A DNA stretch of 64,000 bases from an uncultured Magnetococcales bacterium (GCA_964344355.1 CAYFNE010000007.1:7225-71224), one strand, 5' to 3'; positions 10,376 to 35,283 are shown, numbered from the stretch's first letter. Translations and numbers: made by a program. Notes: generated by a model not told the origin, from the sequence alone.

Positions 10376-10391
10376 TGGCATGGAACCTGCT
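10376..10391 (+). promoter_or_regulatory. Candidate sigma-54 (-24/-12) promoter for the 10.6-20.3 kb operon
   Basis: TGGCATGgaacCTGCT versus consensus TGGCACG-N4-TTGCW, matching 10 of 12 specified positions. GG (10377-78) and GC (10389-90) have the canonical 12-nt register. Lies 179 nt upstream of ATG 10570. Confidence 0.5.
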
Positions 10392-10569
10392 TTGATTGTT
10401 TCCGTTCAACAATATGACCTTCCACCGGGGCGGTTCGGCAATATTTGCCCGGTTCCCCCCAGGAAATAGGTGCCCATCTCCCCAACAGGAAGGGGTTGGA
10501 ATATTTCAACGAGCCGCCGTGAAAAATACCGATACCGTACAAACCGATTCCAACCGTTCCCAAGGTGAA

Positions 10570-12573
10570 ATGCCGATCAAGGAGATGCTCAATCGGGCCA
10601 TCCACCTGCACCGCGAGGGAAACCCGCAGGAGGCGGTGCGGATTTATGATCAGTGTCTCTCCACCGGTAGCCAGGATGCCAATCTGCTCTATTTGCGCGG
10701 ATCGGCCGCCTTGGACCTCAGAAAACCTCAGGAGGCGGTCACTTTTCTCAGTGCCGCCGTGGCGAAACAACCCGGTGTGGTCACGTTTCAGGAGGCATTG
10801 GCCGCCGCCCTGTTGGCCAGTGGCAACCTGAATGCCGCCGCTCCCCGTTATGAGGAGGCCCTGCGGCTGGAACCCGAGAACGTTTCACTCCTGTTTCAAC
10901 TGGGATGCGTCCTGGTGGACCAGGGGAAAAACGAGGAAGCGGTCGAAAAACTGATCCTGGCGCTCAATCTCTTGAATCAAAGCCGGGATCCGATCAATCA
11001 ACGGCTCCGGGCCTTGGAGCCGAATCCCATCCGGATCGGCGCCTATAAAAAGTTGGCACAGATCAACGCCAAACTCGATAAACGGGTTTTTGAACAACAT
11101 TTTCTTCGGTTGCACAAACACCACGACCCCCGGGAAAAGGCGCCCAATGATTCCAGCTCCGTGGATATGCTCTTTTTGGATGCCAAAATGGCCCTGGAGA
11201 CCGCCCGAAAACAGAACCGCATTCAGCAGACGATTTATATCACCGCCTTGCAGGTTTGTTATTACCTGGGGGAGCCCATTGCCGATGCACCGGAAAATTT
11301 GATCTGCCTGCCGAGAAAAAAGTTGGCCGAATTTTTGACCACCACCCGGATACGGCGTCCGCGGGCGGTCTATTTCGATCCGGCGCGGCCCGATCAGGAG
11401 GCCATTGCCTGGAAAGTGGCCGAAATACTGGAATATATCTATCTGCTCAATCAAAAGACCGGAAACAATTATCTATTGCGAAATCGGGATCTTGAGCCGG
11501 TCCTCAAATCCGGCGAGCCGCTGCGTTTTTTTCTCGGGGCCTCGCGGCGGACGGTGGTGATGCAATACTGTTCGAGAAATCTGGCCAAGGCCCTGGAGCG
11601 GCAGGGTTGTCAGGTCAAATTTCTGATCGAGGAAAATGATCTGGAAGAGGTGGGCTTTCATACCGTCATGCAGGAATACCACGCCTTCAATCCCCACGCC
11701 GTGGTCAACATCAACCATCTCAACAATCTCTGGCTCCATCCCGACGTCTACAATATCACCTGGTGGCAGGATTTCATGCCGACCTTGACCGATCCCAAAC
11801 CCATGCCCTGGCGGGAGCGTGATATCGCCCTGGCCGCCGATCCGAATCTCATCCCCTATCTGGAAAAGACCGGCGCCAAGGATGTTCAGCGCCAGGAGTT
11901 TTGTGTGGATACCCATCTGTTCCGTAGCCGCACTCCCTGGCGGGAGCGTCGCAAGGTGGTGTTCATCGGCGGTTCCTATCTCCACCGTTTGAGCCGCTCT
12001 GCCGGTGAAATCGCAGTGATCCGGGGGGTTAATGAGAGAATGGAAGCCGGTGAACGGGTAACCCGGGAGTTTTTGCAGGAGATGGTTGATCGGTCCGGTC
12101 TGTCATTGCAACAAGGGTTCGAGTTGGGACCGGCCTTGACCTTTGTCGTACGTCAAACCGCCGTCGAATGGTCATGCCTGTTGGCCCCGGAAATGGGTCT
12201 GGAAGTGGAGGTGTATGGTCGGCTTTGGGAACAAAATCCCATTGTTAAACCCTATTTCAAGGGCGAACTGCCCCACGGCGAGGCGGTGGCCGAAGTCTAT
12301 GATCAGGCCAAATATGCCATTGCGGCCACCCCCTATGTGATCGATAGTCAACGGCTGTCGGAAATTTCCGCCTGCGGTGCGGTACCATTGATCTATGATT
12401 CCCGGCACCTGGCCCAAAAACCCCACTGGGACGAGGAGTGCCTGTGGTTTCACTCCCGGGAGACGTTCAAAGCCTGTTTGAACAAACGGCCGGTTAAGGA
12501 TCCCGGCATCATCGCCCGGACCCACTCCTATGATGCCTTCGCCCGGCGGATCCTGGAATGGGTGCGTCGATGA
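10570..12573 (+). CDS. TPR-repeat protein with C-terminal CgeB/GT1-like glycosyltransferase domain
   Basis: ORF track starts at TTG 10396. I prefer ATG 10570 (MPIKEMLNRAIHLHREGNPQEAVRIYDQCL, a typical TPR start) because the sigma-54-like element would place the transcription start near 10400. C-terminal half (RFFLGASRRTVVMQYCSRNLAKALERQGCQVKF...VVFIGGSY...PYVIDSQRLSEISACGAVPLIYD) looks like a CgeB-type glycosyltransferase. Confidence 0.75.
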   Translation: MPIKEMLNRAIHLHREGNPQEAVRIYDQCLSTGSQDANLLYLRGSAALDLRKPQEAVTFLSAAVAKQPGVVTFQEALAAALLASGNLNAAAPRYEEALRLEPENVSLLFQLGCVLVDQGKNEEAVEKLILALNLLNQSRDPINQRLRALEPNPIRIGAYKKLAQINAKLDKRVFEQHFLRLHKHHDPREKAPNDSSSVDMLFLDAKMALETARKQNRIQQTIYITALQVCYYLGEPIADAPENLICLPRKKLAEFLTTTRIRRPRAVYFDPARPDQEAIAWKVAEILEYIYLLNQKTGNNYLLRNRDLEPVLKSGEPLRFFLGASRRTVVMQYCSRNLAKALERQGCQVKFLIEENDLEEVGFHTVMQEYHAFNPHAVVNINHLNNLWLHPDVYNITWWQDFMPTLTDPKPMPWRERDIALAADPNLIPYLEKTGAKDVQRQEFCVDTHLFRSRTPWRERRKVVFIGGSYLHRLSRSAGEIAVIRGVNERMEAGERVTREFLQEMVDRSGLSLQQGFELGPALTFVVRQTAVEWSCLLAPEMGLEVEVYGRLWEQNPIVKPYFKGELPHGEAVAEVYDQAKYAIAATPYVIDSQRLSEISACGAVPLIYDSRHLAQKPHWDEECLWFHSRETFKACLNKRPVKDPGIIARTHSYDAFARRILEWVRR

Positions 12574-13544
12574 ACGCGCCCACCGGGGCGCTGGTCGGTC
12601 GACCCGCCGAGGATTTCGTTGAATCCTATCTGGGTTGGCCGTTGGCGACCCTGCTGAAATTTCCCAAATATATCACCCTGGAGGTGATCAACCGCTGCAA
12701 TGCCGCCTGCATCATGTGCGGCATCGATTTTTCCATCAAGGAAAAGGCGGTCTTGTCTCCGGAGTTGCTCGCACGTCTGGCCGACGAGTTGGGTGAATGG
12801 CGGGATCATGTGGAAAAGGTGATCATCGCCCTGGATGGCGAACCGCTGTTGGACAACCAGGTTCACGAAAAAGTCCGGGTGCTCAAACGGGCCGGCCTGA
12901 GACGGGTCAATGTCACCACCAACGCCAGCCTGCTCTCCCGGGATCGGGCCAGGGCGCTCATTGAAGCGGGTACCGATGAGATCTACATCACCATCGACTC
13001 CCTGAAAAAAGAGATTTACGAGTCCATCCGCAAAAAGCTCGATTTCGATACCGTCCATGGCAACACCATCGAACTGGTCAAGTTGCGTGATGAACTGGGC
13101 GCGGACCTGACCATTCGCGTCTTGATGGTGCAACAGGCCCTGAACCGGGAGGAGGGGGAGGCGTTCAAACGGTACTGGCGGGGAATTCTTTCCGACCGTG
13201 ACCAGATCGCCGTGCAAAGGGCTCACAACTGGGCCAGAAACGCCGATGTCATGACCTTCGGCGATGAACCGGAAATCAACAATATTCCCTGTATCTCCCT
13301 GTGGGGGACGTTGGGAATCCATGCCGATGGCCGGGTGGGGTTGTGCTGTATGGATACCACCTGTGTCCATCCATTGGGCGATTTGAATCACGACACCCTG
13401 GAGGACATCTGGAAATCCCCGGCGATGGCGCGTGCCCGCCGGTTGCATCTTCAGGGGAGACGGGCGGAAATCCCCATCTGTGACGGGTGTACGGTCTGGC
13501 GGGTGGCAAAACGGGAACTGGCTGATACGGGAGGGCCGGGATGA
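12558..13544 (+). CDS. Radical SAM enzyme with SPASM/twitch-type auxiliary cluster domain
   Basis: CxxxCxxC = CNAACIMC. C-terminal C-x13-G-x4-C (CISLWGTLGIHADGRVGLC) plus CDGC. Alternative start ATG 12570 forms an ATGA overlap with the upstream stop. Confidence 0.85.
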   Translation: MGASMNAPTGALVGRPAEDFVESYLGWPLATLLKFPKYITLEVINRCNAACIMCGIDFSIKEKAVLSPELLARLADELGEWRDHVEKVIIALDGEPLLDNQVHEKVRVLKRAGLRRVNVTTNASLLSRDRARALIEAGTDEIYITIDSLKKEIYESIRKKLDFDTVHGNTIELVKLRDELGADLTIRVLMVQQALNREEGEAFKRYWRGILSDRDQIAVQRAHNWARNADVMTFGDEPEINNIPCISLWGTLGIHADGRVGLCCMDTTCVHPLGDLNHDTLEDIWKSPAMARARRLHLQGRRAEIPICDGCTVWRVAKRELADTGGPG

Positions 13545-13568
13545 GTATCGCGCTCCGGGATCGGGACA

Positions 13569-15500
13569 ATGGCTGAACAACTCTACAAGGTGGATCACAT
13601 CATCGACGACGCCTTCGACAATGGGCCGTTCATGGACCATTGCCGGCAATTGCGGCGACGGTTCGCCCTGCGGCCCCGGGTGCTGTTGGTGCAGGTGCCG
13701 CAAATTCCCCTCAACACCTTTGACCCGGTCATCGCCCGTAAACGGGGGTACTACAATTTTCCCCCCACCGGTCTGCAATATCTCCATGAACGGGTCAACG
13801 ACCTGGGCCTGGAGGTGCGCATTCTCAATCTCAACCTGGAGATATTGAAACGGACCATCGACGATGAAACGTTTCACTTCAGTCGTTGGCTGGACATCCT
13901 GACGGCGGAGTTGGATGCCTTTCGACCATCGGTGGTCGGGGTTTCGTGCATGTTCGATGTCGGCATCGAACCGATGCTGGCCATCCTGGATCATCTGCGG
14001 CAACGGGACGATGCCGTGGTGGTGACCGGCGGTTTGATCGCCACTTATGAATGGCCCCATCTGTTCGAAGCCGGCCGTTGTCATTTCGCCGTCGCCGGCG
14101 AGGGGGAAAACAAATTTCGCTTTTTGCTCGCTTCCCTGTTCGAACTGCCCCGGGCCGAGGCGGTGGCCACGCCGGGAATTCATTTTCAGGGGACCGATGC
14201 GGTGTGCGAAACCCGGGGTCCGGTGGATGTGGTCAATTTCGATCTGAACCTGATCGCCAGTTATGACCAGGTGCGCATCGAAGAACATTGCCGTTACGGA
14301 TCCCTCAATCCCTTTGCCCGCATCGCCGGCATCGAAGACACCCCATTCGCGCCAATCCAGTTCCATCGCGGTTGTCGGGCCCTGTGTACCTTCTGCTCGG
14401 TGCATACCTTCATGGGCCGGGGGGTGCGCAATCGCCGGGTCGAAACGGTCTTCGAAGAGATGACCTTCCTGGTGGAACAGCGGGGCATCCGCCATTTTGA
14501 ATGGTTGGATGATGATCTGCTGTTCCGCAAGGAGGCGTTCAAGGATCTGTTGCGGCGGATGATCGCCAAAAACTGGGGAATCACCTGGTCGGCCAACAAT
14601 GGTTTGATCGCCGCCTCCATCGATGATGAACTGATGGCGTTGGTCCAGGATTCCGGCTGCATCGGCTTGAAGATCGGTTTTGAGACCGGCAACCCGGAAC
14701 TGTTGCGGCAGATCAAAAAACCGGGCGGTACCCTGGAAAAATTTCGTCACTGTTGCGCCGTCGTCAACCGTTATCCCAAGGTATTCACCGGCGCCAACCT
14801 GATCATCGGTTTTCCCGGCGAACGGTTCGAGCAGATCATGGACACCTTTCGCTTTTATCTGGAAAACCGCCTGGACTGGGGGGCCTTCAACGCCTGTCAG
14901 GCCATCCGGGGCGCCAGCGCCTTTGCCGAACATGGCGACTATTTCGAGTCGCAGATGAGTGGTGGCGGCAAAAACATCAAGAATTTCATTCCCGTTCGGG
15001 GTGATGCCAGCGGTCATCTGTTGAGTGGCGAAATGGTGCGGACCGGTCTGGATGTTTTCGACATCGACCCAAAATCCGAGCCCGGGGAGGAGCAGGTCAA
15101 GGAGATCTGGTTCACCTTCAATCTGGTGGCCAACTTCATGTTCAACCGCAACCTGAAGGTGGGCGCCCGGGTGGAAAAATTTATCGCCTGGGTGGAGATG
15201 GCCCAGGTACCCTACCCGGACAATCCATACATGTGCCTGTTTTTGGCCCTGGCCAGGCGGATTGCCGGCCGTGATGGCGTGGAACGGTTGCTGGACACCG
15301 CCCGCCGGGTTCTTGAAGGAAGCGGCTATTGGCGGCAGCGGTTCGCCGAGTTCGATCTCGACCGGGGGATGGCCGATTTTCCCGATGATGGTCGGTCGGC
15401 CCAGGCGCTGGTGGAGGGATTGTGCCGCAACGCCCAAAAACGCTTCGCCCACTGGTTCACCCTGGACCACCCGGCGGCCAACGATGGAGAGGGCCGATGA
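13569..15500 (+). CDS. B12-binding-domain radical SAM enzyme (class B-like)
   Basis: 643 aa. N-terminal Rossmann-like B12-binding-type region (RVLLVQVP...GLEVRILNLN...VVVTGGLIATY), then the radical SAM motif CRALCTFC. Confidence 0.85.
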   Translation: MAEQLYKVDHIIDDAFDNGPFMDHCRQLRRRFALRPRVLLVQVPQIPLNTFDPVIARKRGYYNFPPTGLQYLHERVNDLGLEVRILNLNLEILKRTIDDETFHFSRWLDILTAELDAFRPSVVGVSCMFDVGIEPMLAILDHLRQRDDAVVVTGGLIATYEWPHLFEAGRCHFAVAGEGENKFRFLLASLFELPRAEAVATPGIHFQGTDAVCETRGPVDVVNFDLNLIASYDQVRIEEHCRYGSLNPFARIAGIEDTPFAPIQFHRGCRALCTFCSVHTFMGRGVRNRRVETVFEEMTFLVEQRGIRHFEWLDDDLLFRKEAFKDLLRRMIAKNWGITWSANNGLIAASIDDELMALVQDSGCIGLKIGFETGNPELLRQIKKPGGTLEKFRHCCAVVNRYPKVFTGANLIIGFPGERFEQIMDTFRFYLENRLDWGAFNACQAIRGASAFAEHGDYFESQMSGGGKNIKNFIPVRGDASGHLLSGEMVRTGLDVFDIDPKSEPGEEQVKEIWFTFNLVANFMFNRNLKVGARVEKFIAWVEMAQVPYPDNPYMCLFLALARRIAGRDGVERLLDTARRVLEGSGYWRQRFAEFDLDRGMADFPDDGRSAQALVEGLCRNAQKRFAHWFTLDHPAANDGEGR

Positions 15501-16558
15501 GCAAGGCACCCAAGGTATTGATCGGCGGCGGCAAACTGGCTGCCAACCCGGACTATTTCAAGGCGTGGCGGCAGGGGAAAAATCCCGGTCCCCTGGTGGT
15601 GGAGGCGGGCATCGTCAATGGTTGCAACCACAACTGTCTGCACTGTGATTTTCAACAGTTCGAACCCTACGGCGACCGGAAAGGGTTCATTGACGCCGAT
15701 CTGTTTCAGACCTTTTTGCGGGATTTCGCCGGCATGGGCGGCATCGAGGTGTTTTTTGCCGGCAGCGGCGAACCCCTGCTGCATCCCAAATTCGCCGATT
15801 TCGTCAAACTGGCCAACGAACTCGGCTTGAGTTGCACCCTGAGCAGCAACGGCCAGATGCTCAACCGGAAAAATGCCGAAAAAATCCTGCCCTACCTGAA
15901 ATGGATCCGCTGTTCGGTCAATGGTGGTGACGCCAAAACCTATGCCGCCATCCATCGTTGCGGCGAAAAGGAGTTCGACCGTCTGGCGCGGAACCTGGAG
16001 ACGGCGATCAGGATACGCGATGCCGGCGGTCATGAGGCGCGGATCTCCATTCAATATATTTTGTACGATCTCAATTTCGATACCATCGCCGGGGTGGTGG
16101 ACCTGCATGAACGGGCCGGCACCGATCTGCTGGTGTTTCGCAACCGTCTGGACAAGGATGGCGGTAAAAACCGGCTGCCGGAAACGGTACTGCGGCGTTT
16201 GCGCCGGTTGGAGGTCGAACGGGATCGGGTGGAGGTGCGCTGGAACGATTTTCCCGATCAGCCCGATCTACCCACCTGGAGCCGCTGTTACGGACCCAAC
16301 TTTCGCATCAACCTCGACGCCTCGGGCAACATCATCCCCTGCGCCCGGGATTTTTATATCCCCAGTAAGGTGGGCAATATCAACACCGACCGTTTTCCGG
16401 ATATCTGGCGCTCGGAAAAACGGCGGCAGGTCTACCGTCAGATCACCAGTGGACGGGATATTCCCATCTGCGGCAAATGGTGCCAGGTCGCATTTGACAA
16501 CATCTATGTGCAGGGATGGCTGGACAGCCATCCCCTGGAGGAGATTCAACATGGCTGA
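15497..16558 (+). CDS. Radical SAM enzyme with SPASM/twitch-type auxiliary cluster domain (paralog-like to 12558..13544)
   Basis: ORF track 15422..16558. Start set to ATG 15497 (MSKAPKVLIGG), an ATGA overlap with the upstream stop. CNHNCLHC motif. C-terminal C-x13-G-x4-C (CYGPNFRINLDASGNIIPC) plus CGKWC. Confidence 0.85.
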   Translation: MSKAPKVLIGGGKLAANPDYFKAWRQGKNPGPLVVEAGIVNGCNHNCLHCDFQQFEPYGDRKGFIDADLFQTFLRDFAGMGGIEVFFAGSGEPLLHPKFADFVKLANELGLSCTLSSNGQMLNRKNAEKILPYLKWIRCSVNGGDAKTYAAIHRCGEKEFDRLARNLETAIRIRDAGGHEARISIQYILYDLNFDTIAGVVDLHERAGTDLLVFRNRLDKDGGKNRLPETVLRRLRRLEVERDRVEVRWNDFPDQPDLPTWSRCYGPNFRINLDASGNIIPCARDFYIPSKVGNINTDRFPDIWRSEKRRQVYRQITSGRDIPICGKWCQVAFDNIYVQGWLDSHPLEEIQHG

Positions 16559-17663
16559 ACCGGCTATCAACTGGTGGAACGTCGAAGTCGGCGAGGAGGC
16601 CGCGCCGCGCATCGTCGATGCCATCGCCAAGGGTCATATCAGTCAGGGGCCGGTTACCGCCGAGTTCGAGAGCGCCCTGGCCGCTTTGTTGAACGTGCCG
16701 TATGCCGTCTGTACCACCAGCGGTACCATGGCCTTGACCATCTCCCTGTTGGCCCTGGGTATCCAGCCCGGTGATGAAGTGATCATGCCCGACCGGACCT
16801 GGGTGGCCACCGCCAACGCCGCCCTGTTGCTCGGCGCCCGGGTGCGATTGGTGGATGTGCTGCCCGACGGTCCGCCGATCATGGATCATGACCGGATCGA
16901 AGCGGCCATCACCCCGAAAACCCGGGCGATTCTGCCGGTACACCTGAACGGGCGGGCTGTGGCCATGGAGCCGGTATTGACCATCGCCGAAAAACATGGG
17001 TTGGGGGTGGTCGAGGATGCCTGTCCCTCCATCTGTTCCCGCCATCGGGGTCGTTTCGTCGGTACCTTCGGTCGATTCGGCTGTTTTTCCCTGGGCATGG
17101 CCAAACTGCTGGGGACCGGACAGGGGGGGGTGATCGTTTGCCACGATGAGGCCGATTACACCCTGCTGACCCGCATCCGCAACCAGGGATTGAGCGGTTC
17201 GGCCATGAATGAACGGCATGATGTCCGCGGTGGCAACTTTAAATTTACCGATATTCAGGCCGCCCTGGGATTGGCGCAACTCGGTTTGTTGGACAAACGC
17301 ATCGAACATCAAAAGGCCATCCACCAACTCTATCTGGATGGTTTGCGGGGACTCGATGCCGTCACCTTCGTACCGGTGGATATCGAGGCCGGTGAAATAC
17401 CCTTGCGTGCCGATGCCATGAGTCCGGACCGCGACCGTTTCGTGCGCGAGATGGCCGATCGGGGTATCGCCATCGCTCCCCAGTCGCCCAATTTGAGTGA
17501 CTTTCCCTTCATCGCCGACGATGGTCGAACATTTGCCAACGCCAAACGGTTTTCCGATACCATGCTCACCCTGCCGTCGGGTCCCGATCAACCGTTGGTC
17601 AATGTGGAAAAAACGGTTGAAACCATCCGCGCCATCGATCCCCTGTTCAAACGCGCATCGTGA
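16551..17663 (+). CDS. DegT/DnrJ/EryC1/StrS-family PLP-dependent aminotransferase
   Basis: In-frame ATG 16551 (MAEPAINWW...) within ORF-track 15921..17663, with an 8-nt overlap onto the upstream gene. Motifs TTSGTMALTISLLALGIQPGDEVIMP and FSLGMAKLLGTGQGG (PLP-lysine region). Confidence 0.9.
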   Translation: MAEPAINWWNVEVGEEAAPRIVDAIAKGHISQGPVTAEFESALAALLNVPYAVCTTSGTMALTISLLALGIQPGDEVIMPDRTWVATANAALLLGARVRLVDVLPDGPPIMDHDRIEAAITPKTRAILPVHLNGRAVAMEPVLTIAEKHGLGVVEDACPSICSRHRGRFVGTFGRFGCFSLGMAKLLGTGQGGVIVCHDEADYTLLTRIRNQGLSGSAMNERHDVRGGNFKFTDIQAALGLAQLGLLDKRIEHQKAIHQLYLDGLRGLDAVTFVPVDIEAGEIPLRADAMSPDRDRFVREMADRGIAIAPQSPNLSDFPFIADDGRTFANAKRFSDTMLTLPSGPDQPLVNVEKTVETIRAIDPLFKRAS

Positions 17664-19138: not shown

Positions 19139-19174
19139 TCGATTCGTTTTTGGGTTTTATCAGAAAGGCCGACG

Positions 19175-25624: not shown

Positions 25625-26172
25625 CAGGGTTCGGCGTTCACCGCCCGGGGGGGATCCAGCCGTCGACGGGTTTCAAGAATCCGGTCGGCCTGCTCGGACG
25701 GTGATCGGCTGCCATCGTTGTCCAGAATCAGGTCCGGTCGTTTCGGCGCCTGGTAGGCCAAATCGACGCCCATGAGATTGTTCAACTCGCCATCGCGGTT
25801 TTTCTGATAGAGCCGTTTGGAATCGCGGGCGGTGAGGACTGCCATGGGCGCCCGGACATAGACCTCGAAATAGTCCCGGACATTGTCCCGGTTCCAGGCC
25901 TGCACCTCATGGAACAGGGAGATGGTGGCGCAGACCACATCGATCCCCTGATCGACCAGATAGTGGCAGAGCCGGGCATATTTCATGGCCAACCGCAATC
26001 GCTCCTCCGGCGAGTAGGAGCCGGAAACGGCGAACACCCGTCGCAGTTCATCGCCATCGAGCATGACCACATTCGGTTTTTCCGCCTTCAGGGCGGCATA
26101 CAGTTCTCGGCCGATGGTGGTCTTGCCGGCCCCGGAAAGACCGGTCAACCAAAACAAAGTCGCCATAACCAC
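25624..26172 (-). CDS. cysC: Adenylylsulfate (APS) kinase
   Basis: 182 aa. LFWLTGLSGAGKTTIGRELY...VVMLDGDELR...FEVYVRAP is typical CysC. Confidence 0.9.
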   Translation of the reverse strand: MVMATLFWLTGLSGAGKTTIGRELYAALKAEKPNVVMLDGDELRRVFAVSGSYSPEERLRLAMKYARLCHYLVDQGIDVVCATISLFHEVQAWNRDNVRDYFEVYVRAPMAVLTARDSKRLYQKNRDGELNNLMGVDLAYQAPKRPDLILDNDGSRSPSEQADRILETRRRLDPPRAVNAEP

Positions 26173-26871: not shown

Positions 26872-29186
26872 TTATCGAAATATCGTTTGCCACAACCGAT
26901 CACCGATGGCAATCCCAGTTCGGCGGCGCGGATGGCCATGTGCGAGTTGCAACCGCCATACTGGGTGATCAAACCACCGATGTTGCGGCTGAAAATCCAG
27001 TCATAACCCGGGTCGGCACTGGATATGCAGACGATTTTTCCCTGTAGATCCGATTCCAACAGTTCCGGCTCGGTGACCGTCGCCCCCTGGACCCGGGAGA
27101 GGGTGATGAAGTTCGGTTCGCTGCCATTGAGGCAAAAATCGTAGATGTCTTCGGGGCGGAAGATCACCGGTGGCAGATCGATTGCCTGGGAGTGGTTGAA
27201 GGAACGCTTGTTGCGGGCGATGTTATCCCGCAACCGTTCTCCCAGGCCCTGTTCCCCGAGGCTGGCATAGAGGTCCAATACCACCTGAATGTCCAGATAG
27301 GAGAGTTCATCGGCGTTGAGGCCATGGGGTTGGCCGATCTCTTCGAGCAGGGAGAGCACGGCGCTCAAGTGTCGCGTGAAAACGAACTTGCCATATTCCC
27401 GGCCCTCGATGGCCCGGCGGATGAACGCCAGCAAATGGTCCACCGAGACATCCAAACCGTTGGTGACCAGCAGATGGGCGATGTGCTCACGCTGCGGTTG
27501 CGAAAAGGAGAACTCTTTTTCCGGATCGGAACCCTCGTTGGCGCCGATCCCGCCCGCACCCGGCTCGGTCAGGCTGGGAAAATATATCTCGAAGGCCTCA
27601 TCATAGCGTTTGGAGAGAATGTTGTAGGTGCCGGGCCGCAGATGCCCGTAACGAGCGAGAAAATCGGCCGTCGACAGGCCGCCGGTGCGCAACAGCCGCA
27701 CATCGTCGGCCAGGTCCCGGGAGACGGTTTTCAGGGTGCGCATGTAGGCCGACCGTTCCTCCTCGCTGCACACCCCCATGGCCACGAAGGCGTCCAAAAA
27801 CTGTACGGCGATGAAACCGGCCCGGGCCAGCCCGGCGAACGGCAGGGTGCCGTAGCGTTTGCAGTCCTCCATCAACCAGTAGAGTTTTTCCACCTGCGAC
27901 ATGGGGCCTTCCATCACCTCGCCATAGCGCCGTTCCAGATGCTCGACCTTGGCCAGATCGCGTTGAAAATGGCCATCCTTGGAGTGGATGATGCCGTTGG
28001 TGACCTTGAGCAGTCCAAACTTGATCCGGTCCAGTTCGTCCTCACTGAAACCGTGATCGAGCAGTTTTTTGATGCGTTGCCCCAGGCCGGGATAATAACA
28101 GGTGTAGAGAATTTTGAACTCCACCTTGTCATGGTCGCTGGGCTGGCGGGTGAAACGATCCAGATAATAATCCACCAGCTTGTAGGCCAGTTTGTCGTCG
28201 ATCTCTTTGGGGATGAAGGAGTTGAAGGTGACCCGCACATCGATGTAGGGCTTGCCGAACAACGCGATCAACAGCGGGAAACCGCGCATGTTGCGATAGC
28301 CGTAGTTGTCCCGTTGGTAGGCCCAGATGGAGTCGGTGATCAACTCCTTGTAGAGCGACAGCGCCAGGGGCCGGGGGTTGGTACCGATGATTTCGGCCGG
28401 GTTCCAGTCGGGCATGTTGCCGAGAATGGTGCGCGATCCCACCAGATCGGGGTGGGGCAGGTTGAGCTTTTCGATCCGACCGCGAATTTTGTTCAGATAT
28501 CCTTCCAGACGGTCGATCGGCACCGGGGGATGCTTGGAACCGACCACCATGGGCCGTACCTGCAACAGGTGCAGCCGGTCCTGGTCATCGACGGCGAACT
28601 CAATGTCCAGATGTTCAAAGGCGAACCGTTTTTCAAGCTCATCCGCCGTTTCGATCAACCGTTGCAACCACGGTTCGGGGATGGGAATTTCCGCCCGTTT
28701 GAACCGGACCCGGGTGGTGAACTCACTCATGCCCCCGGATGTCACGCCATCGGTGGAACCCAACTGATCATCATAACTGAGCACATAATAAGGAGACAGG
28801 GTGTCCAGGTCGCTGGTGAACAGCACCCCGGCCAGGCGGACCGGCTGGATCTGTTTTTGTACCAATACCTGGTGATTGGCGTCGCCGTCGCCATAGGAGG
28901 CGATGACCCGGTTGATGGCGGCGTGCAGACGTTCCATGTCATCGGTGGGGATGCCGAGCAGGGAGAGATACCGTCCCGCCTGGGAGGCGTTCACGCCATC
29001 CTCGCCCAGGGCGGAACTGCGCACGGCCACCTCCTGGCCGGCGAATTGCCGGTGGAGTTTTTTCAATACGATGCCGGGCGTCTCACGCCATTGACCGACG
29101 CTGAAACAGGCCAATGGTGGAATATCGGCAACCGTCAGTTTGCCTTCCAGTGACTGTAACGTCTCCGCCTTGCTGCCAAATTTCAT
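26808..29186 (-). CDS. PEP-synthase/PPDK-like dikinase (ATP-grasp PPDK_N domain + C-terminal phospho-His swivel domain, no PEP/pyruvate TIM barrel)
   Basis: ORF track 26808..29360. Start set to ATG 29186 (MKFGSKAETLQSLEGKL) with AGGAGG 6 nt upstream. C-terminal GGLITQYGGCNSHMAIRAAELGLPSVIG is the mobile-domain His motif. Confidence 0.85.
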   Translation of the reverse strand: MKFGSKAETLQSLEGKLTVADIPPLACFSVGQWRETPGIVLKKLHRQFAGQEVAVRSSALGEDGVNASQAGRYLSLLGIPTDDMERLHAAINRVIASYGDGDANHQVLVQKQIQPVRLAGVLFTSDLDTLSPYYVLSYDDQLGSTDGVTSGGMSEFTTRVRFKRAEIPIPEPWLQRLIETADELEKRFAFEHLDIEFAVDDQDRLHLLQVRPMVVGSKHPPVPIDRLEGYLNKIRGRIEKLNLPHPDLVGSRTILGNMPDWNPAEIIGTNPRPLALSLYKELITDSIWAYQRDNYGYRNMRGFPLLIALFGKPYIDVRVTFNSFIPKEIDDKLAYKLVDYYLDRFTRQPSDHDKVEFKILYTCYYPGLGQRIKKLLDHGFSEDELDRIKFGLLKVTNGIIHSKDGHFQRDLAKVEHLERRYGEVMEGPMSQVEKLYWLMEDCKRYGTLPFAGLARAGFIAVQFLDAFVAMGVCSEEERSAYMRTLKTVSRDLADDVRLLRTGGLSTADFLARYGHLRPGTYNILSKRYDEAFEIYFPSLTEPGAGGIGANEGSDPEKEFSFSQPQREHIAHLLVTNGLDVSVDHLLAFIRRAIEGREYGKFVFTRHLSAVLSLLEEIGQPHGLNADELSYLDIQVVLDLYASLGEQGLGERLRDNIARNKRSFNHSQAIDLPPVIFRPEDIYDFCLNGSEPNFITLSRVQGATVTEPELLESDLQGKIVCISSADPGYDWIFSRNIGGLITQYGGCNSHMAIRAAELGLPSVIGCGKRYFDNWSRASLLELNCSEKTVMVLN

Positions 29187-29306: not shown

Positions 29307-29322
29307 AGCAACTCCCGTGCCG
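29307..29322 (-). promoter_or_regulatory. Candidate sigma-54 (-24/-12) promoter for the dikinase-amidotransferase-cysC operon
   Basis: Minus strand reads cGGCACGggagTTGCt, matching 11 of 12 specified positions of TGGCACG-N4-TTGCW with exact GG-N10-GC spacing. About 120 nt upstream of ATG 29186. Confidence 0.6.
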
Positions 29323-29642: not shown

Positions 29643-30887
29643 ATGGAATATCGTACATTCGGAAAAACCGGTAAAAAAATATCCGTCTTCACCCTGGGGG
29701 GCATGCGGTTTTTGCATGGCGATGGCTTGGTGGAGGAGGAATTACGGGAGGATAGCCTGGAAAATACCCATCAGGTCATCACCACCGCCTTTGCCGCCGG
29801 GTTCAATCTGATCGAGACCGCGCGGGGGTATGGCAAGAGTGAACGGTTGATCGGGCGAACCCTGCCACACCTTTCCCGGTCCCGGGATTCGTATCATGTG
29901 ATGACCAAGGCGCCACCGGTGGAAACGGCCGGGGAGATGCGTCGCATGTTGGAGACGTCCCTGGAACGGTTGGCCCTCGATCATGTGGATTTTTTCGCCG
30001 TGCATGGACTCAATCTGCCGGAACACCTGGAAACGGCCCGGCGACCCGGCGGTTACCTGGATGGGTTGCGGCGTGCCCGGGAGGAAGGGTTGATCGGCCA
30101 CATCGGTTTTTCCACTCACGGACCGTTGCCGGTGATCCTGGCGGCCATCGACAGCGATTTTTTCGAGTTCGTCAATCTTCACTATTATGCGTTCCGCCCC
30201 GGGCTGGAACCGGCGGTGAAAAGGGCGGCACAACAGGACATGGGGGTGTTGATCATCTCCCCGAATGACAAGGGCGGCCGGCTCTACGAGCCGCCGCGGC
30301 GGTTGGCGGAGTTGACCGCGCCGTTGCATCCGGTGCAATACAACGAACGATGGTTGCTGGCGCAACCGGAGGTTCACACCCTCAGCATCGGCATGAACCA
30401 GCCGGATCAATTACAGATTCATCTGGACAGCCTCGACCGCCCTTGTCCGGATGAGCGGGATGAAACGATCCATCAACGGTTGCAACGGGCCGCCGCCGCC
30501 TCTCCCACCCGGCACTGCGGGGTTTGCGCGGCCTGTCTGCCCTGTCCACGGGGCATCGAAATTCCCGAGGTATTGCGTCTCGAACATCTCAGCGCCACCT
30601 TCGACATGCGGTTTTTCGGGCGCTATCGCTACAGCCTGATGATTCCGGGCAACCATTGGGTACCCGGGGCCGCCGGCAACGCCTGCGACCGCTGCGGCGA
30701 CTGTCTGCCGCGATGCCCGGAAAATCTGGATATCCCCTCCCTGCTGTTCACTACCCACCGACGGCTGCGTTCGTTCAAAAAAAGTTTTATCGAAATAGCC
30801 GCCAAAATCCATCAGCGCATACCGCCAAGCTGGATCGACCGCTTGGCGCCGTTGATCGCCCTGTTGCGCCGTTGGTTGACCGGTTGA
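29643..30887 (+). CDS. Aldo/keto reductase with C-terminal Cys-rich (4Fe-4S ferredoxin-like) extension
   Basis: Start set to ATG 29643 (MEYRTFGKTGKKISVFTLGGMRF, a typical AKR N-terminus). C-terminal CGVCAACLPCP and CDRCGDCLPRCP motifs. Confidence 0.85.
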   Translation: MEYRTFGKTGKKISVFTLGGMRFLHGDGLVEEELREDSLENTHQVITTAFAAGFNLIETARGYGKSERLIGRTLPHLSRSRDSYHVMTKAPPVETAGEMRRMLETSLERLALDHVDFFAVHGLNLPEHLETARRPGGYLDGLRRAREEGLIGHIGFSTHGPLPVILAAIDSDFFEFVNLHYYAFRPGLEPAVKRAAQQDMGVLIISPNDKGGRLYEPPRRLAELTAPLHPVQYNERWLLAQPEVHTLSIGMNQPDQLQIHLDSLDRPCPDERDETIHQRLQRAAAASPTRHCGVCAACLPCPRGIEIPEVLRLEHLSATFDMRFFGRYRYSLMIPGNHWVPGAAGNACDRCGDCLPRCPENLDIPSLLFTTHRRLRSFKKSFIEIAAKIHQRIPPSWIDRLAPLIALLRRWLTG

Positions 30888-32782: not shown

Positions 32783-34276
32783 TCAGACCGAGAATTCGTT
32801 CTTCGATCGTCTCGCCAACTCCCGGGCCTCCCGCCGCAATCGGTTGCGATCGATCTTGCCGTTGGCCAGCAAGGGCATCCGTTCGAGAATTTTCAAATGG
32901 TGGGGATGTTTGTATCGGGCCAGGATCGGATTCAGAAAGTCGCGCAGGGTTTCCAGTCGGCCATCCCTTTCCCGGGTGAAAGTGGCGACGAGGAAGGCGA
33001 AACCCACCTCTCCCCATTTTTCATCCGCAACCGCCACCACCACCGCCTGGCTGATATCGGCATGGCTGACCAGCTTTTTTTCCACTTCGCCGGGATAGAC
33101 GTTTTCACCGCCTGAGATGTACATCTCCTTTTTGCGGCCCACCACGTAAAAAAAACCGGCCGCATCCACCCGCACCAGATCGCCGGTGACGAACAGCCCT
33201 TCGCGGATCGACTGTCGGAACAGGGACTCTTCCCGCCAATAACCGGCGCACAGATGCGGACCGCCGATCCACAATTCACCGACCTCATCGACACCGACGG
33301 CGTTGCCGTTTTCATCCACCACCTTGACCCGGGAGTGGGCCATCGGTTTGCCGGTGGCATCGGGCCGTTCGAAGGCATCTTCGGTTTCGTGCAAAAAACA
33401 GTTGGGACCGACTTCGGTCAAGCCGAAACCCTGTTTGAAGGGAATGCCGCGCTGGTGAAAGGCCTGGATCAGGGGCGGGCTCAACGGTGCGCCGCCGGAG
33501 AGAAAAAAACGGATGCGGCTGAAATCGGTGCGGCTGAAATCGACGTGATCCCGGAGGGCCTGAAACATGGTCGGCACCCCCCAAAAGACGGTGATCCCCT
33601 CCCGGTCGATCGCCTTCAGGACCGAGCCGGGATCGAACCGCTCGAACAGGATCAGGGTACCACCGATGGAGAGGAGGGGCAGGGTGAAAACGTTGTAACC
33701 GCCGGTGTGGAAAAAGGGGGTGTTGGCGATGGAGATGTCCTCCGGTCTCAGGACATCCGAAGCGACGGTATGATGCATGTTGGCCATCAACATGCCGGCC
33801 TGCAACAAGACCCCTTTGGGTCGTCCGGTGGTGCCGGAGGTGAACAGCATCAACAACGGTTGATCATCGGTCACCGGCACCGGGGGTCGGGTTGTTTTCG
33901 GGGCTGGATCGAGGGAGTCGATCGATTGATAGACGGGGTGTGGGAAGGGGGCGGCCCCCTCACCGACAAAACAGGCCGGTTGCACCCGATCGATGATGTC
34001 GGCCAACTCGCCGGCGGCCAGACGGTGGTTGAGGGGGACGAAAATGGCGCCGATGCGGTTGCAGGCGAAAAACAGGGTCAGATGTTCCAGGCGGTTGGGG
34101 GCCAGAAAGGCGACCCGGTCGCCGGTGGTCACCCCCTGGCCCAGGAGCCAGCCCCGCCATTCTTCGCTTTCCCGGTGCAGATCGGCATAGGTCAGGCGCC
34201 GACCGGACCGGTCATCGACGATGGCGATTTTGCCGGCGGAGCTTTGGGCGAACACCTGGATGAAATCGCGCCACAT
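32783..34276 (-). CDS. AMP-dependent synthetase/ligase (acyl-CoA synthetase family)
   Basis: 497 aa. AMP-binding motif LFTSGTTGRPKGV, then YGLTE-like GFGLTEVG, and C-terminal GKIDR. Confidence 0.9.
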   Translation of the reverse strand: MWRDFIQVFAQSSAGKIAIVDDRSGRRLTYADLHRESEEWRGWLLGQGVTTGDRVAFLAPNRLEHLTLFFACNRIGAIFVPLNHRLAAGELADIIDRVQPACFVGEGAAPFPHPVYQSIDSLDPAPKTTRPPVPVTDDQPLLMLFTSGTTGRPKGVLLQAGMLMANMHHTVASDVLRPEDISIANTPFFHTGGYNVFTLPLLSIGGTLILFERFDPGSVLKAIDREGITVFWGVPTMFQALRDHVDFSRTDFSRIRFFLSGGAPLSPPLIQAFHQRGIPFKQGFGLTEVGPNCFLHETEDAFERPDATGKPMAHSRVKVVDENGNAVGVDEVGELWIGGPHLCAGYWREESLFRQSIREGLFVTGDLVRVDAAGFFYVVGRKKEMYISGGENVYPGEVEKKLVSHADISQAVVVAVADEKWGEVGFAFLVATFTRERDGRLETLRDFLNPILARYKHPHHLKILERMPLLANGKIDRNRLRREARELARRSKNEFSV

Positions 34277-34278
34277 GG

Positions 34279-35064
34279 TTATCCCAGGAACTCCTGGACC
34301 CGTTGGGCCAGCTCGGCCGGTTTTTCCAAAAAAAACAGATGATCGGTATCGGTAAAAATTTCCACGCGGGCCGCCGGAATTTTTTCCCCCAACAGATGGG
34401 CATTGGCCGCCGGCACCACGGTATCGGTATCTCCCGACAGGATCAGGGTTGGACAGCCGATCCGTTCCAGGTCCAGGGTCCGTTCCATGAAGGCGGTGAC
34501 CGCCCGATATTGCAACATCACCTGTGCCGGGTCCACCCGTTCACGCCGACGCTGGGCCAACACCCGCCGATGGATGTCGGGGTAACGGCTGCTGAACAGG
34601 GGAAAAATGGCCGTGGAGAGGGCCACTTCCGCCCGTTGTTCGGGGGGCATGGCATAGAGGGTCCGCACCTGTTTTTCCCCCAGGCCGGGAAAAATTTTTT
34701 TAAATTCCGCTCCGCCGGAACTGGTGCAGAGCAGGATCAACGCCGTCACCCGTTCCGGGGCGCGCAGGGTCAACAGTTGGGCGATGAACCCGCCCATGCT
34801 CAAACCGGCGACGGCAAAACGGTCCTGGCCGAGATCATCCATCACCGCCAGGGCGTCGTCGGCCAGCGCTTCCAGTCCATAGGGGGCGGCGGCCGGGGGG
34901 GAACGGCCCATGCCACGGTTGTCGGGCAGGATGAATCGATATCGGTCCTGCAACCGATCGGCCAGGGATTCGAACACCCAGTTGGAACTGCCGAATCCGG
35001 CCAGGCACAACAGCGACGGCCCCCGGCCGATGATATCGACGTGATTTTTGAACCGTTTTTTCAC
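34279..35064 (-). CDS. Alpha/beta-fold hydrolase
   Basis: GTG start. Nucleophile elbow GLSMGG. HGFGSS-like oxyanion region LAGFGSSNWVF. C-terminal DHLFFLE. Confidence 0.85.
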   Translation of the reverse strand: MKKRFKNHVDIIGRGPSLLCLAGFGSSNWVFESLADRLQDRYRFILPDNRGMGRSPPAAAPYGLEALADDALAVMDDLGQDRFAVAGLSMGGFIAQLLTLRAPERVTALILLCTSSGGAEFKKIFPGLGEKQVRTLYAMPPEQRAEVALSTAIFPLFSSRYPDIHRRVLAQRRRERVDPAQVMLQYRAVTAFMERTLDLERIGCPTLILSGDTDTVVPAANAHLLGEKIPAARVEIFTDTDHLFFLEKPAELAQRVQEFLG

Positions 35065-35267
35065 CGGGGACCCCGCCTGTCATGTTTTTCCCGAACTGTC
35101 CGCCTTTTCGACTGAAAATGGCGGTAAAGGGTGCCTGCACGGCCTCTTCGACACCCTGAAAAAATAGACGATTCGATTTACGACCGCAAAGTTCATCGTG
35201 AACGGAACAGCTGCCGACGGACCATCGTCGGGGCGGTCTTTACCTTGAATTGTTGGTGTTTTTTTCA

Positions 35268-35283
35268 AGCATTCCGAATGCCA
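35268..35283 (-). promoter_or_regulatory. Weak candidate sigma-54-type element upstream of the hydrolase-ligase-TPR/GT9 unit
   Basis: Minus strand reads TGGCATTcggaATGCT, matching 9 of 12 specified positions with correct GG-N10-GC spacing. It sits inside a perfect palindrome GCATTC-c-GAATGC, about 200 nt upstream of the GTG at 35064. Confidence 0.3.

What the first reader, a model, noticed from the sequence alone, without database searches (positions are those of the whole stretch)
10376..35283. ~25-kb sigma-54-linked island of TPR-tethered glycosyl-/sulfotransferases, radical-SAM enzymes and a private PAPS supply: candidate protein-directed sulfo-glycosylation system
Seen: every gene from 10.4 to 35.3 kb looks like a soluble tailoring enzyme. 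They are a TPR+CgeB-like GT, three radical-SAM enzymes, a DegT aminotransferase, a sulfotransferase (CNRSGST loop), a Zn-ribbon methyltransferase, a WbuC cupin and a 1168-aa double [sulfotransferase+TPR] protein. They continue with a class I methyltransferase, an APS kinase, a C26 amidotransferase, a PEP-synthase-like dikinase, an AKR-ferredoxin, a TPR+GT9-like protein, an acyl-AMP ligase and an alpha/beta hydrolase. I see no Wzx/Wzy/ABC exporter, no polyprenyl-phosphate priming transferase, no nonulosonic-acid synthase and no obvious membrane protein. Three transcription-unit heads carry GG-N10-GC sigma-54-type elements (10376, 29322, 35283). Known: TPR+glycosyltransferase fusions act on protein substrates (Caulobacter FlmG on flagellin, OGT/SPY enzymes). 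Sulfotransferases need PAPS from APS kinase. Sigma-54 controls flagellar and pilus regulons in many proteobacteria. Inference: this is a cytoplasmic pathway that builds and attaches a heavily tailored glycan to a protein. The tailoring would include amination, C-/O-methylation, sulfation and possibly phosphorylation or acylation. Flagellin, pilin or an S-layer protein would be the likely target, rather than an LPS/capsule locus. Sulfated protein glycans are barely documented in bacteria.
Basis: partly seen in the sequence, partly recalled or inferred. Interest (0 to 1): 0.8.

Follow-up and report, generated by a model that had tools for sequence, protein, structure and literature searches.

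The report
Phosphoramidate, not sulfate, glycan-tailoring island
This 25-kb block of soluble tailoring enzymes is real, but its supposed "sulfate supply" matches the pathway that makes the rare phosphoramidate (P-N) donor of the Campylobacter capsule, and its "sulfotransferases" probably transfer that group onto a glycan, possibly one carried by flagellin.

Summary
The gene inventory is confirmed. From 10.5 to 35.1 kb there are 17 soluble enzymes and no transporter, priming transferase or membrane protein.

The interpretation needs one large correction. The [quoted passage not shown] trio, together with the methyltransferase at 24844-25596, matches Campylobacter jejuni Cj1415/Cj1417/Cj1418/Cj1419-20. 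[quoted passage not shown] No ATP sulfurylase is present. The cytidylyltransferase step (Cj1416) is missing from the window.

Sulfotransferase-fold genes of the window's subfamily abut this cassette in about 25 of 81 genomes fetched by the glutamine kinase. The cassette also adjoins 5 of the 7 nearest sulfotransferase homologues. They are therefore the best candidates for phosphoramidyl transferases. This is an inference, not a demonstration.

The closest syntenic islands (L093, L015, L090) lie beside flagellin, Maf or FlhB-like genes, so a protein (flagellin) glycan target is plausible. No acceptor gene lies in the parts of the contig I could read.

Sigma-54-like sites do sit upstream of three island operons.

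Verdict: a new variant of a known system, with a testable new hypothesis for the transfer step.

The parts
10376..10391 (+). Sigma-54-like -24/-12 element TGGCATGGAACCTGCT, 128 nt upstream of the first operon
   Evidence: 2 mismatches to TGGCAC-N5-TTGCW; function not tested
10519..12573 (+). TPR + CgeB-like (Glyco_trans_1_2) glycosyltransferase, 684 aa
   Evidence: TPR families; PF13524 E=3.4e-6. Start taken. The C-terminal 495 aa score 298 and 310 bits against TPR-less GTs in L093 and L090, and 168 bits in L015, all next to the cassette
12558..13544 (+). Radical SAM / SPASM enzyme
   Evidence: PF04055 66.9 bits, PF13186 49.5 bits; no specific NCBIfam equivalog
13569..15500 (+). B12-binding radical SAM enzyme (probable methylase)
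   Evidence: The best NCBIfam hits are PhpK/Sden_1168 P-methyltransferase families, but far below their cutoffs
15422..16558 (+). Radical SAM / SPASM enzyme (likely start near 15497)
   Evidence: homologues lie next to the cassette in L093 (110 bits), L091 and L016
16551..17663 (+). DegT/PseC/LegC-like sugar aminotransferase, 370 aa
   Evidence: PF01041 268 bits; LegC and PseC families ~180 bits, below cutoff; gene call
17660..19138 (+). Sulfotransferase-fold protein (492 aa), loop CNRSGST, RNP...S motif; candidate phosphoramidyl transferase
   Evidence: 132 bits on the profile of cassette-adjacent ST-like proteins
19175..20251 (+). SAM methyltransferase with N-terminal Cys motif
   Evidence: relatives in L093 (55 bits) and L007
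20269..20766 (-). WbuC-family cupin
   Evidence: TIGR04366, 100.8 bits, cutoff 42
20763..24269 (-). Tandem-duplicated [sulfotransferase fold + TPR] x2, 1168 aa. Module 1 has YGRSGSYF/RDPIQSLGS. Module 2 has YGDSGTLF/RQPIRSLGS
   Evidence: (D3 repeat, 1752-nt spacing). The nearest relatives are single-module 588-595 aa proteins of Magnetococcales
24844..25596 (+). Cassette methyltransferase, homologue of Cj1419/Cj1420
   Evidence: 40% and 33% identity to the Cj1419- and Cj1420-like ORFs of L084/L085; present in 63 of 81 cassette loci
25624..26166 (-). APS-kinase-fold kinase of the cassette subfamily; probable CDP-amidate 3'-kinase (Cj1415 type)
   Evidence: NF004041 194 bits above cutoff; TIGR00455 apsK below cutoff. 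The same pattern holds in 10/10 cassette-linked kinases. It is fused to the glutamine kinase in many genomes
26176..26811 (-). Class I amidotransferase-fold hydrolase; probable gamma-glutamyl-CDP-amidate hydrolase (Cj1417 type)
   Evidence: best NCBIfam hit NF045546, 139 bits, below cutoff 250; 36% identity to the Cj1417-like ORF; Cys121/His209/Glu211 conserved
26808..29186 (-). L-glutamine kinase homologue (Cj1418 type), 792 aa
   Evidence: NF004508, 939 bits, cutoff 501; relatives named glutamine kinase; 40% identity over 797 aa to the Cj1418-like ORF; swivel-domain His749 invariant
29307..29322 (-). Sigma-54-like element CGGCACGGGAGTTGCT, 121 nt upstream of the glutamine kinase operon
   Evidence: the only 1-mismatch match in the window
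29643..30887 (+). Aldo/keto reductase fused to a 4Fe-4S domain
   Evidence: role unknown; a related AKR occurs in L021
30904..32667 (-). TPR (1-290) + GT9-like GT-B domain, 587 aa; FlmG-like architecture
   Evidence: (FlmG 596 aa, TPR 1-313, GT 309-596); AF2 model good for the TPR part only
32783..34276 (-). AMP-forming acyl-CoA/acyl-AMP ligase
34279..35064 (-). Alpha/beta-fold hydrolase
35268..35283 (-). Sigma-54-like element TGGCATTCGGAATGCT, 204 nt upstream of the hydrolase-ligase-TPR/GT9 operon

Best explanation
The island is a cytoplasmic glycan-tailoring locus whose central chemistry is phosphoramidate transfer, not sulfation.

Proposed steps:
1. [quoted passage not shown] This is shown for Cj1418 and inferred here by homology.
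2. A cytidylyltransferase makes CDP-glutamine. This enzyme is not encoded in the window.
3. The C26-fold hydrolase releases CDP-amidate.
4. The APS-kinase-fold enzyme adds a 3'-phosphate. The product is 3'-phospho-CDP-amidate, an isostere of PAPS.
5. The sulfotransferase-fold proteins (the 492-aa protein and the duplicated 1168-aa TPR fusion) then transfer the phosphoramidyl group to a hydroxyl of the acceptor. This step is my inference.
6. The Cj1419/20-like methyltransferase may O-methylate the product. This is inferred and is unproven even in C. jejuni.

The first operon (three radical SAM enzymes, DegT aminotransferase, methyltransferase, CgeB-like GT) builds or extends the modified sugar. 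The TPR domains fused to two glycosyltransferases and to the transferase most likely dock the enzymes on a protein acceptor. By comparison with the closest islands elsewhere, that acceptor is most likely flagellin. Transcription of three of the operons is probably sigma-54 dependent.
For: Cassette identity:
- NF004508 939 bits, NF045546 as best hit, and NF004041 above its cutoff.
- 40%, 36% and 40% identity to the Cj1418-, Cj1417- and Cj1419-like ORFs. These ORFs come from loci recovered with a published cj1420 primer, and the loci reproduce the NCTC 11168 gene order.
- Catalytic His, Cys-His-Glu triad and P-loop are conserved.

Cassette as a unit:
- In 81 loci from many phyla, kinase 71, hydrolase 70, cytidylyltransferase 72 and methyltransferase 63 co-occur with the glutamine kinase. 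The kinase is often fused to the glutamine kinase.

Link between the sulfotransferase fold and the cassette:
- 34 of 81 loci carry an ST-like gene.
- 32 of 37 such genes lie within 2 kb of the cassette, and about 25 abut it.
- Conversely, 5 of the 7 nearest homologues of the window's ST module have the glutamine kinase cassette adjacent, and 6 of 7 have the kinase adjacent.
- DUF2972 transferases of the Cj1421/22 type occur in only one of the 81 loci, so another transferase family is needed elsewhere.

Protein (flagellin) target:
- L093, L015 and L090 combine the best matches to the window's CgeB-like GT, ST, kinase, methyltransferase, glutamine kinase, radical SAM and DegT with flagellin, Maf or FlhB-like genes.
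- Flagellin-family genes lie within 10 kb in 7 of 81 cassette loci.
- The FlmG precedent shows TPR-mediated flagellin binding.
Against: - No Cj1416-type cytidylyltransferase is found anywhere in the 64-kb window, either with a profile of 70 homologues or with a Campylobacter probe. The pathway as encoded here is incomplete unless that gene lies elsewhere.
- No enzyme of the ST-like family has been shown to use the phosphoramidate donor.
- The proven MeOPN transferases Cj1421/22 carry only DUF2972. They show no significant profile similarity to the ST family. Only an RDPI motif aligns, P about 0.1.
- The nearest full-length ST+TPR homologue (Magnetococcus, L088) has no cassette within 10 kb. 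One further relative (the P0404 locus) has only the kinase.
- TPR fusions of the transferase or the GTs were seen in none of the 81 cassette loci.
- No flagellar, pilin-glycosylation or nonulosonic acid gene lies in the island or in the readable contig flanks.
- The second ST module has Asp in place of the P-loop Arg and may be inactive.
Confidence: 0.6

Rival explanations
1. A private APS kinase supplies PAPS, and the sulfotransferase-domain proteins sulfate a protein-linked glycan.
For: Pfam assigns APS_kinase (117 bits) and Sulfotransfer_1/_3. The ST domains keep the P-loop and RxP...S motifs used for PAPS binding. The best solved relative is protein-tyrosine sulfotransferase TPST2, at a weak 22 bits. 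One relative locus (P0404) has the kinase and ST without a glutamine kinase within 10 kb.
Against: No ATP sulfurylase is in the window. The kinase is co-operonic with the glutamine kinase and the CDP-amidate hydrolase homologues. It falls in the subfamily shared by 10/10 cassette-linked kinases, and below the apsK equivalog cutoff. The kinase is present in 71 of 81 cassette loci whether or not an ST gene is present, and is often fused to the glutamine kinase.
Confidence: 0.12
2. The same phosphoramidate chemistry, but the acceptor is a polysaccharide (capsule, LPS or exopolysaccharide), as in C. jejuni. Polymerisation and export genes would lie elsewhere in the genome, and the TPR domains would serve enzyme-enzyme assembly.
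For: The only experimentally established use of the pathway is decoration of the capsule. The nearest neighbours of cassette+ST loci are generic sugar-nucleotide and GT2 genes. 18 of 81 loci hold a protein with six or more hydrophobic segments. L092 carries GT1/GT2 and Asn-synthase genes and no flagellar gene.
Against: The island has no membrane protein, priming transferase or exporter. The loci that share the most genes with the island (L093, L015, L090) are flagellar. Three enzymes carry TPR domains, and the FlmG precedent shows that such domains can bind the protein substrate.
Confidence: 0.22
3. The island makes a small molecule or modified peptide, such as a phosphoramidate natural product or a RiPP, rather than a cell-surface glycan.
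For: There are two SPASM radical SAM enzymes, a B12 radical SAM, an acyl-AMP ligase, a thioesterase-like hydrolase and an AKR-ferredoxin. Nothing in the island exports or anchors a glycan.
Against: No precursor-peptide candidate was found in the intergenic gaps. There are no NRPS/PKS, cyclase or exporter genes. The same radical SAM + DegT + cassette combination recurs inside nonulosonic-acid and flagellin islands.
Confidence: 0.05

Closest known systems
Campylobacter jejuni MeOPN locus (Cj1415-Cj1422; Taylor and Raushel 2017-2019, McNally 2007)
   Same: Homologues of the glutamine kinase Cj1418 (40% identity), the hydrolase Cj1417 (36%), the APS-kinase-fold Cj1415 class and the Cj1419/20 methyltransferases (40% and 33%). 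They are clustered and partly co-operonic.
   Different: There is no Cj1416 cytidylyltransferase in the window. There is no DUF2972 (Cj1421/22) transferase; three sulfotransferase-fold domains are present instead. The island is not inside a kps capsule locus. Several enzymes carry TPR fusions, and the promoters are sigma-54-like.
PAPS-dependent sulfotransferases (Sulfotransfer_1/_3; TPST2, CurM ST)
   Same: The fold family, the P-loop (G/N-R-S-G-S) and the RxP...S motif.
   Different: Similarity to any solved sulfotransferase is very weak (22 bits or less). There is genomic linkage to the phosphoramidate-donor cassette, not to ATP sulfurylase. The donor is predicted to be 3'-phospho-CDP-amidate.
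FlmG flagellin glycosyltransferase of Caulobacter and Brevundimonas
   Same: The plan is an N-terminal TPR of about 300 aa plus a C-terminal GT-B domain, 587 versus 596 aa. Both are soluble and cytoplasmic.
   Different: Sequence homology to FlmG could not be tested. No flagellin or Pse/Leg genes lie nearby. The GT domain matches GT9 only marginally.
Maf-type flagellin glycosylation islands (Campylobacter, Aeromonas, Clostridium)
   Same: The nearest syntenic relatives L093 and L015 are such islands. They contain the same CgeB-like GT, ST, cassette, radical SAM and DegT genes.
   Different: The window has no Maf, no flagellin, and no NeuB/PseI or CMP-sugar synthetase.

Membership tests
MeOPN-type phosphoramidate donor pathway (Cj1415-Cj1418) | L-glutamine kinase: PPDK_N ATP-grasp plus PEP-utilizers swivel domain with catalytic His | tested here: met
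   NF004508 939 bits (cutoff 501); 40% identity over 797 aa to the Cj1418-like ORF; His749 invariant in 24 homologues
MeOPN-type phosphoramidate donor pathway (Cj1415-Cj1418) | gamma-glutamyl-CDP-amidate hydrolase (class I amidotransferase fold, Cys-His-Glu) | tested here: met
   The best NCBIfam hit is NF045546, but at 139 bits against a cutoff of 250. 36% identity to the Cj1417-like ORF. The triad is conserved. The gene overlaps the glutamine kinase gene by 4 nt
MeOPN-type phosphoramidate donor pathway (Cj1415-Cj1418) | CTP:phosphoglutamine cytidylyltransferase (Cj1416) | tested here: not met
   No hit in any frame of the window with a 70-sequence profile (best E=2.4) or with the Cj1416-like probe. 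The gene is present in 72 of 81 other loci
MeOPN-type phosphoramidate donor pathway (Cj1415-Cj1418) | APS-kinase-fold CDP-amidate 3'-kinase linked to the cassette | tested here: met
   It lies in the same operon. NF004041 scores 194 bits, above its cutoff, while apsK TIGR00455 falls below its cutoff. The pattern is identical in 10/10 cassette-linked kinases. A direct comparison with Cj1415 itself was not possible
MeOPN-type phosphoramidate donor pathway (Cj1415-Cj1418) | DUF2972 MeOPN transferase (Cj1421/Cj1422) | tested here: not met
   The Cj1421/22-like ORFs of L084 hit DUF2972 only. There is no homologue in the window or in 80 of 81 loci
MeOPN-type phosphoramidate donor pathway (Cj1415-Cj1418) | Product: P-N bonded (methyl) phosphoramidate on a glycan | not testable with these tools
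   Needs 31P NMR or mass spectrometry
PAPS-dependent sulfation system | Sulfotransferase fold with 5'-PSB and 3'-PB motifs | tested here: met
   PF13469 92 bits and PF00685; motifs located; TPST2 alignment
PAPS-dependent sulfation system | PAPS supply: ATP sulfurylase plus a bona fide APS kinase | tested here: not met
   No sulfurylase family was hit among the window proteins scanned. The kinase is of the cassette subfamily
FlmG-class flagellin glycosyltransferase | N-terminal TPR flagellin-binding domain plus C-terminal GT-B domain, about 600 aa | tested here: met
   587 aa, TPR 1-290, weak GT9 match at 502-532, compared with FlmG
FlmG-class flagellin glycosylation system | Sequence homology to FlmG, and linkage to flagellin and Pse/Leg genes | tested here: inconclusive
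   No FlmG sequence was available. No flagellin or NeuB/PseI gene is in the window or in the readable flanks. The GT domain model was too poor for a fold search
Sigma-54-dependent promoter | GG-N10-GC (-24/-12) element upstream of the transcription unit | tested here: met
   Three sites with 1-2 mismatches, 121-204 nt upstream of operon starts. RpoN dependence and an activator-binding site were not testable

The most novel reading that the evidence does not exclude
A divergent branch of the sulfotransferase fold is the general phosphoramidyl transferase that uses 3'-phospho-CDP-amidate. It replaces the Campylobacter-specific DUF2972 enzymes in most bacteria. MeOPN-like P-N decorations would then be widespread on flagellin (and other protein) glycans across many phyla. 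In this organism the transferase has been duplicated and fused to TPR domains, so that it acts directly on the protein-bound glycan, or on the protein itself.
Probability: 0.4. Interest if true: 0.8.

Novelty: new variant of a known kind. Interest (0 to 1): 0.65.

Why it matters
Phosphoramidate (P-N) decorations are described in the papers I read as rare in nature, and the glutamine kinase as C. jejuni-specific. The transfer step had still not been reconstituted in vitro in 2025.

In this analysis the donor cassette turns up in at least 594 species genomes of many phyla. It is recurrently welded to a sulfotransferase-fold gene, and in several lineages it lies inside flagellin glycosylation islands.

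If the sulfotransferase-fold proteins are the transferases, three things follow:
- It would explain how the PAPS-like donor is used.
- Hundreds of genes annotated as 'sulfotransferase' or 'APS kinase' would need re-annotation.
- Soluble enzymes, and cultured organisms that carry the module, would become available for testing. Examples are Anaerotruncus colihominis DSM 17241, Cohnella boryungensis and Catenovulum agarivorans DS-2.

It would also warn against inferring sulfation from domain names alone.

Tried and rejected
1. I searched homologues with the Campylobacterales ST-like protein of L027 to reach Cj1421/22. Only 3 hits came back, none from Campylobacter.
2. A Campylobacterota glutamine kinase profile did not bring C. 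jejuni into the top 120 hits. I then recovered Campylobacter-type loci with a published cj1420 primer.
3. Direct and profile comparison of Cj1421/22-like proteins with the ST family gave no significant similarity. Only the RDPI motif aligned. Homology between the two transferase families remains unproven.
4. The AF2 model of the TPR+GT9 protein had pLDDT below 50 in the GT domain, so I ran no fold search.
5. PDB sequence searches of the cassette enzymes and the TPR fusions returned only generic APS kinases, GATases, PEP synthases and TPR proteins.
6. I looked for marks of a mobile island. There are no tRNA genes, no Rfam hits and no flanking direct repeats. Only a YhgA/Rpn-type transposase gene lies at 37265-38200.
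7. I looked for a precursor peptide in the 24270-24843 gap and found none convincing.
8. My first gene call at 38398-40431(-) was wrong. The real gene there is RecQ at 38416-40347(+).
9. The organism could not be named. All window proteins looked up are singletons at 90% identity, without source names. The project accession occurs in no paper held.

Full report
**1. Observation**

I mapped genes by codon-position GC content and scanned every candidate against Pfam and NCBIfam.

- The plus-strand operon runs from 10519 to 20251. In order it encodes TPR + CgeB-like GT, radical SAM-SPASM, B12 radical SAM, radical SAM-SPASM, DegT aminotransferase, a 492-aa sulfotransferase-fold protein and a methyltransferase.
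- A minus-strand pair follows: the 1168-aa double sulfotransferase+TPR protein and a WbuC cupin.
- Then a methyltransferase on the plus strand.
- Then a minus-strand operon: PEP-synthase-like protein, C26 amidotransferase, APS-kinase fold.
- Then an AKR-ferredoxin on the plus strand.
- Then a minus-strand operon: alpha/beta hydrolase, acyl-AMP ligase, TPR+GT9-like protein.

No protein in the island has more than one marginal hydrophobic segment. No exporter, priming transferase or nonulosonic acid synthase family was hit. The 1168-aa protein is an internal duplication whose halves are 42% identical over 576 aa.

**2. Sigma-54 elements**

- The three elements exist: TGGCATGGAACCTGCT, CGGCACGGGAGTTGCT and TGGCATTCGGAATGCT.
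- Across the window the motif is no more frequent than in shuffled sequence (28 against 29.7).
- Four of the seven transcription-unit heads between 9.5 and 35.3 kb have a site within 300 nt upstream in the right orientation. None of the 16 heads elsewhere does.
- A sigma-54 activator gene lies 20 kb away, at 54978-56618.
- Sigma-54 control is therefore plausible but untested.

**3. The key reinterpretation**

- NCBIfam placed the 'dikinase' in NF004508 at 939 bits. It gave gamma-glutamyl-CDP-amidate hydrolase as the best family for the C26 protein. It put the kinase in subfamily NF004041 rather than in the apsK equivalog.
- These are the enzymes of the C. jejuni pathway to the O-methyl phosphoramidate capsule decoration:
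  - Cj1418, glutamine kinase.
  - Cj1416, cytidylyltransferase.
  - Cj1417, CDP-amidate hydrolase.
  - Cj1415, CDP-amidate kinase. Its product, 3'-phospho-CDP-amidate, resembles PAPS.
  - The pathway is summarised. The PAPS analogy rests on my own knowledge of Taylor and Raushel 2018, which is not held in the library.
- Homologues about 50% identical to the window protein are named 'glutamine kinase' by JGI. One is fused to an APS_kinase domain.
- A cj1420 primer printed in PMC3907429 retrieved two metagenome loci.
  - L084 reproduces the NCTC 11168 order Cj1425 to Cj1419, with ORFs of 625 and 612 aa at the positions of Cj1422 and Cj1421.
  - L085 carries Cj1420, 1419, 1418, 1417 and 1416 types.
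- The window proteins are 40% (797 aa), 36% and 40%/33% identical to the Cj1418-, Cj1417- and Cj1419/20-like ORFs.
- The swivel histidine, the Cys-His-Glu triad and the kinase P-loop are conserved.
- Ten of ten cassette-linked kinases from ten taxa show the same NF004041-over-apsK pattern as the window kinase.
- No ATP sulfurylase is in the window. 'Private PAPS supply' is therefore not supported.

**4. A gap**

The cytidylyltransferase is absent from all six frames of the window. It is present in 72 of 81 other loci. Either it lies elsewhere in the genome or the pathway is incomplete here.

**5. The cassette elsewhere**

A scan of one genome per species found at least 594 genomes with a glutamine kinase relative, and 80 loci were fetched. 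One further locus (L003) came from an earlier contig look-up. In these 81 loci the kinase, hydrolase, cytidylyltransferase and methyltransferase nearly always accompany the glutamine kinase. The kinase is frequently fused to the glutamine kinase.

**6. The sulfotransferase fold and the cassette**

- A profile of ST-like proteins finds them in 34 of 81 loci.
- 32 of the 37 genes are within 2 kb of the cassette, and about 25 abut it.
- Pfam scores for many of them are weak or sub-threshold. This is a divergent branch of the fold.
- In the reverse direction, a full HMMER search with one ST+TPR module found 897 clusters at E<=1e-10. The nearest are single-module ST+TPR proteins of Magnetococcales.
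- Of the seven nearest homologues whose contigs I could read, five have the glutamine kinase cassette adjacent (L089, L090, L091, L092, L093). One has only the kinase. One (L088, Magnetococcus) has neither, and lies next to a PKMT-type protein lysine methyltransferase and a CgeB-like GT.
- DUF2972 proteins of the Cj1421/22 type occur in only one of the 81 loci, Helicobacter aurati.
- My inference is that the ST-fold proteins are the phosphoramidyl transferases outside Campylobacter. This fits the PAPS-like donor, but it has not been shown.
- I could not show homology between Cj1421/22 and the ST fold. By eye, both Cj proteins have a strand-loop segment and an RDPI...K-S/H motif at a plausible spacing.
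- No paper in the library mentions sulfotransferases together with Cj1421, MeOPN or CDP-amidate.

**7. The acceptor**

- The loci that share the most genes with the window are flagellar.
  - L093 has a giant flagellin, then a Maf fused to TPR, then DegT, PglD-like, PtmE-like and CMP-sugar synthetase genes. It then has a CgeB-like GT (298 bits to the window GT), SIS, epimerase, ST (240 bits), kinase, methyltransferase (340 bits), glutamine kinase (818 bits), hydrolase and cytidylyltransferase. It ends with a radical SAM (110 bits), transketolase, RmlD and a relative of the 358-aa methyltransferase.
  - L015 (Arcobacteraceae) has three flagellins, Maf and SIS. An operon follows with the CgeB-like GT, the cassette, three radical SAM enzymes, a Sulfotransfer_3 protein and DegT.
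  - L090 (Desulfobulbaceae) has a FlhB-like gene, the cassette, ST, DegT, a radical SAM and three CgeB-like GTs (310 bits).
- Flagellin-family genes lie within 10 kb in 7 of 81 cassette loci. In three Oscillospiraceae loci the flagellin gene heads the same-strand cluster.
- FlmG shows that a TPR domain fused to a GT-B domain can bind flagellin. The window's 587-aa protein has that plan.
- Against this, the window and the roughly 17 kb of contig beyond it hold no flagellar gene. What lies there is a T2SS/MSHA-like pilus cluster 7-17 kb to the left, housekeeping genes, and signalling genes to the right.
- None of the 81 GLNK-centred cassette loci has TPR-fused versions. The ST+TPR fusion does recur beside the cassette in the Magnetococcales locus L089.
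- Other cassette loci look polysaccharide-like.

**8. Verdict**

It is wrong in chemistry: phosphoramidate rather than sulfate. The finding is a new variant of the MeOPN system. It carries a testable hypothesis for the unresolved transfer step.

Noticed in passing
window 9561-10187 (+): An orphan Cse2/CasB-like gene (TIGR02548, 45.8 bits, cutoff 28.5) lies directly upstream of the island, with no other cas genes in the window. It is also preceded by a sigma-54-like site at 9402-9417.
   Followed up: partly
window 15-3635 and L086 1-10931: A type II secretion / MSHA-like pilus cluster lies 7-17 kb left of the island. It has a secretin, a SPOR/TPR protein, an MshEN-type ATPase, a platform protein and five N-methyl pseudopilins. 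These pilins are the only candidate protein acceptors on the contig.
   Followed up: partly
window 37265-38200 (+): A YhgA/Rpn-family (Transposase_31 + DUF4351) gene lies 2 kb right of the island, after a TPMT methyltransferase and two small genes without Pfam matches. It may mark the edge of an acquired region. No flanking repeats were found.
   Followed up: partly
window 49975-53364 (-): An 1129-aa protein without any Pfam match sits among response-regulator and GGDEF genes.
   Followed up: no
window 13569-15500 (+): The best NCBIfam matches of the B12 radical SAM enzyme are P-methyltransferase families (PhpK, Sden_1168). They are far below cutoff. This is suggestive beside a phosphorus-transfer pathway, but it is not evidence.
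   Followed up: no
window 20766-22517 (-), second module of the 1168-aa protein: The P-loop Arg is replaced by Asp (YGDSGTLF), and RDP by RQP. This module may be catalytically dead or may use a different donor.
   Followed up: partly
L085 5729-8256: In a Campylobacter-type locus, a cytidylyltransferase-PEP mutase fusion and a TPP decarboxylase follow the Cj1416-like gene. Phosphonate and phosphoramidate pathways lie side by side, as was also noted for Borg elements.
   Followed up: no
L091 16272-17054 and L092 8448-9242: An inositol-monophosphatase-family gene is inserted between the hydrolase and the cytidylyltransferase in two cassettes. It could recycle the 3',5'-bisphosphate nucleotide by-product, as CysQ does for PAP.
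   Followed up: no
L088 8444-10012: In Magnetococcus, the nearest ST+TPR homologue is followed by a PKMT-type protein lysine methyltransferase. This hints that this ST+TPR lineage acts on proteins.
   Followed up: no
L077 8595-9963: Helicobacter aurati has an orphan glutamine kinase preceded by a DUF2972 gene split over two frames. This may be a phase-variable or decayed MeOPN transferase.
   Followed up: no
L093 1-303 and L030/L059/L063 starts: Unusually long flagellin-family genes (513 to 1289 aa) adjoin the cassette in several loci.
   Followed up: no
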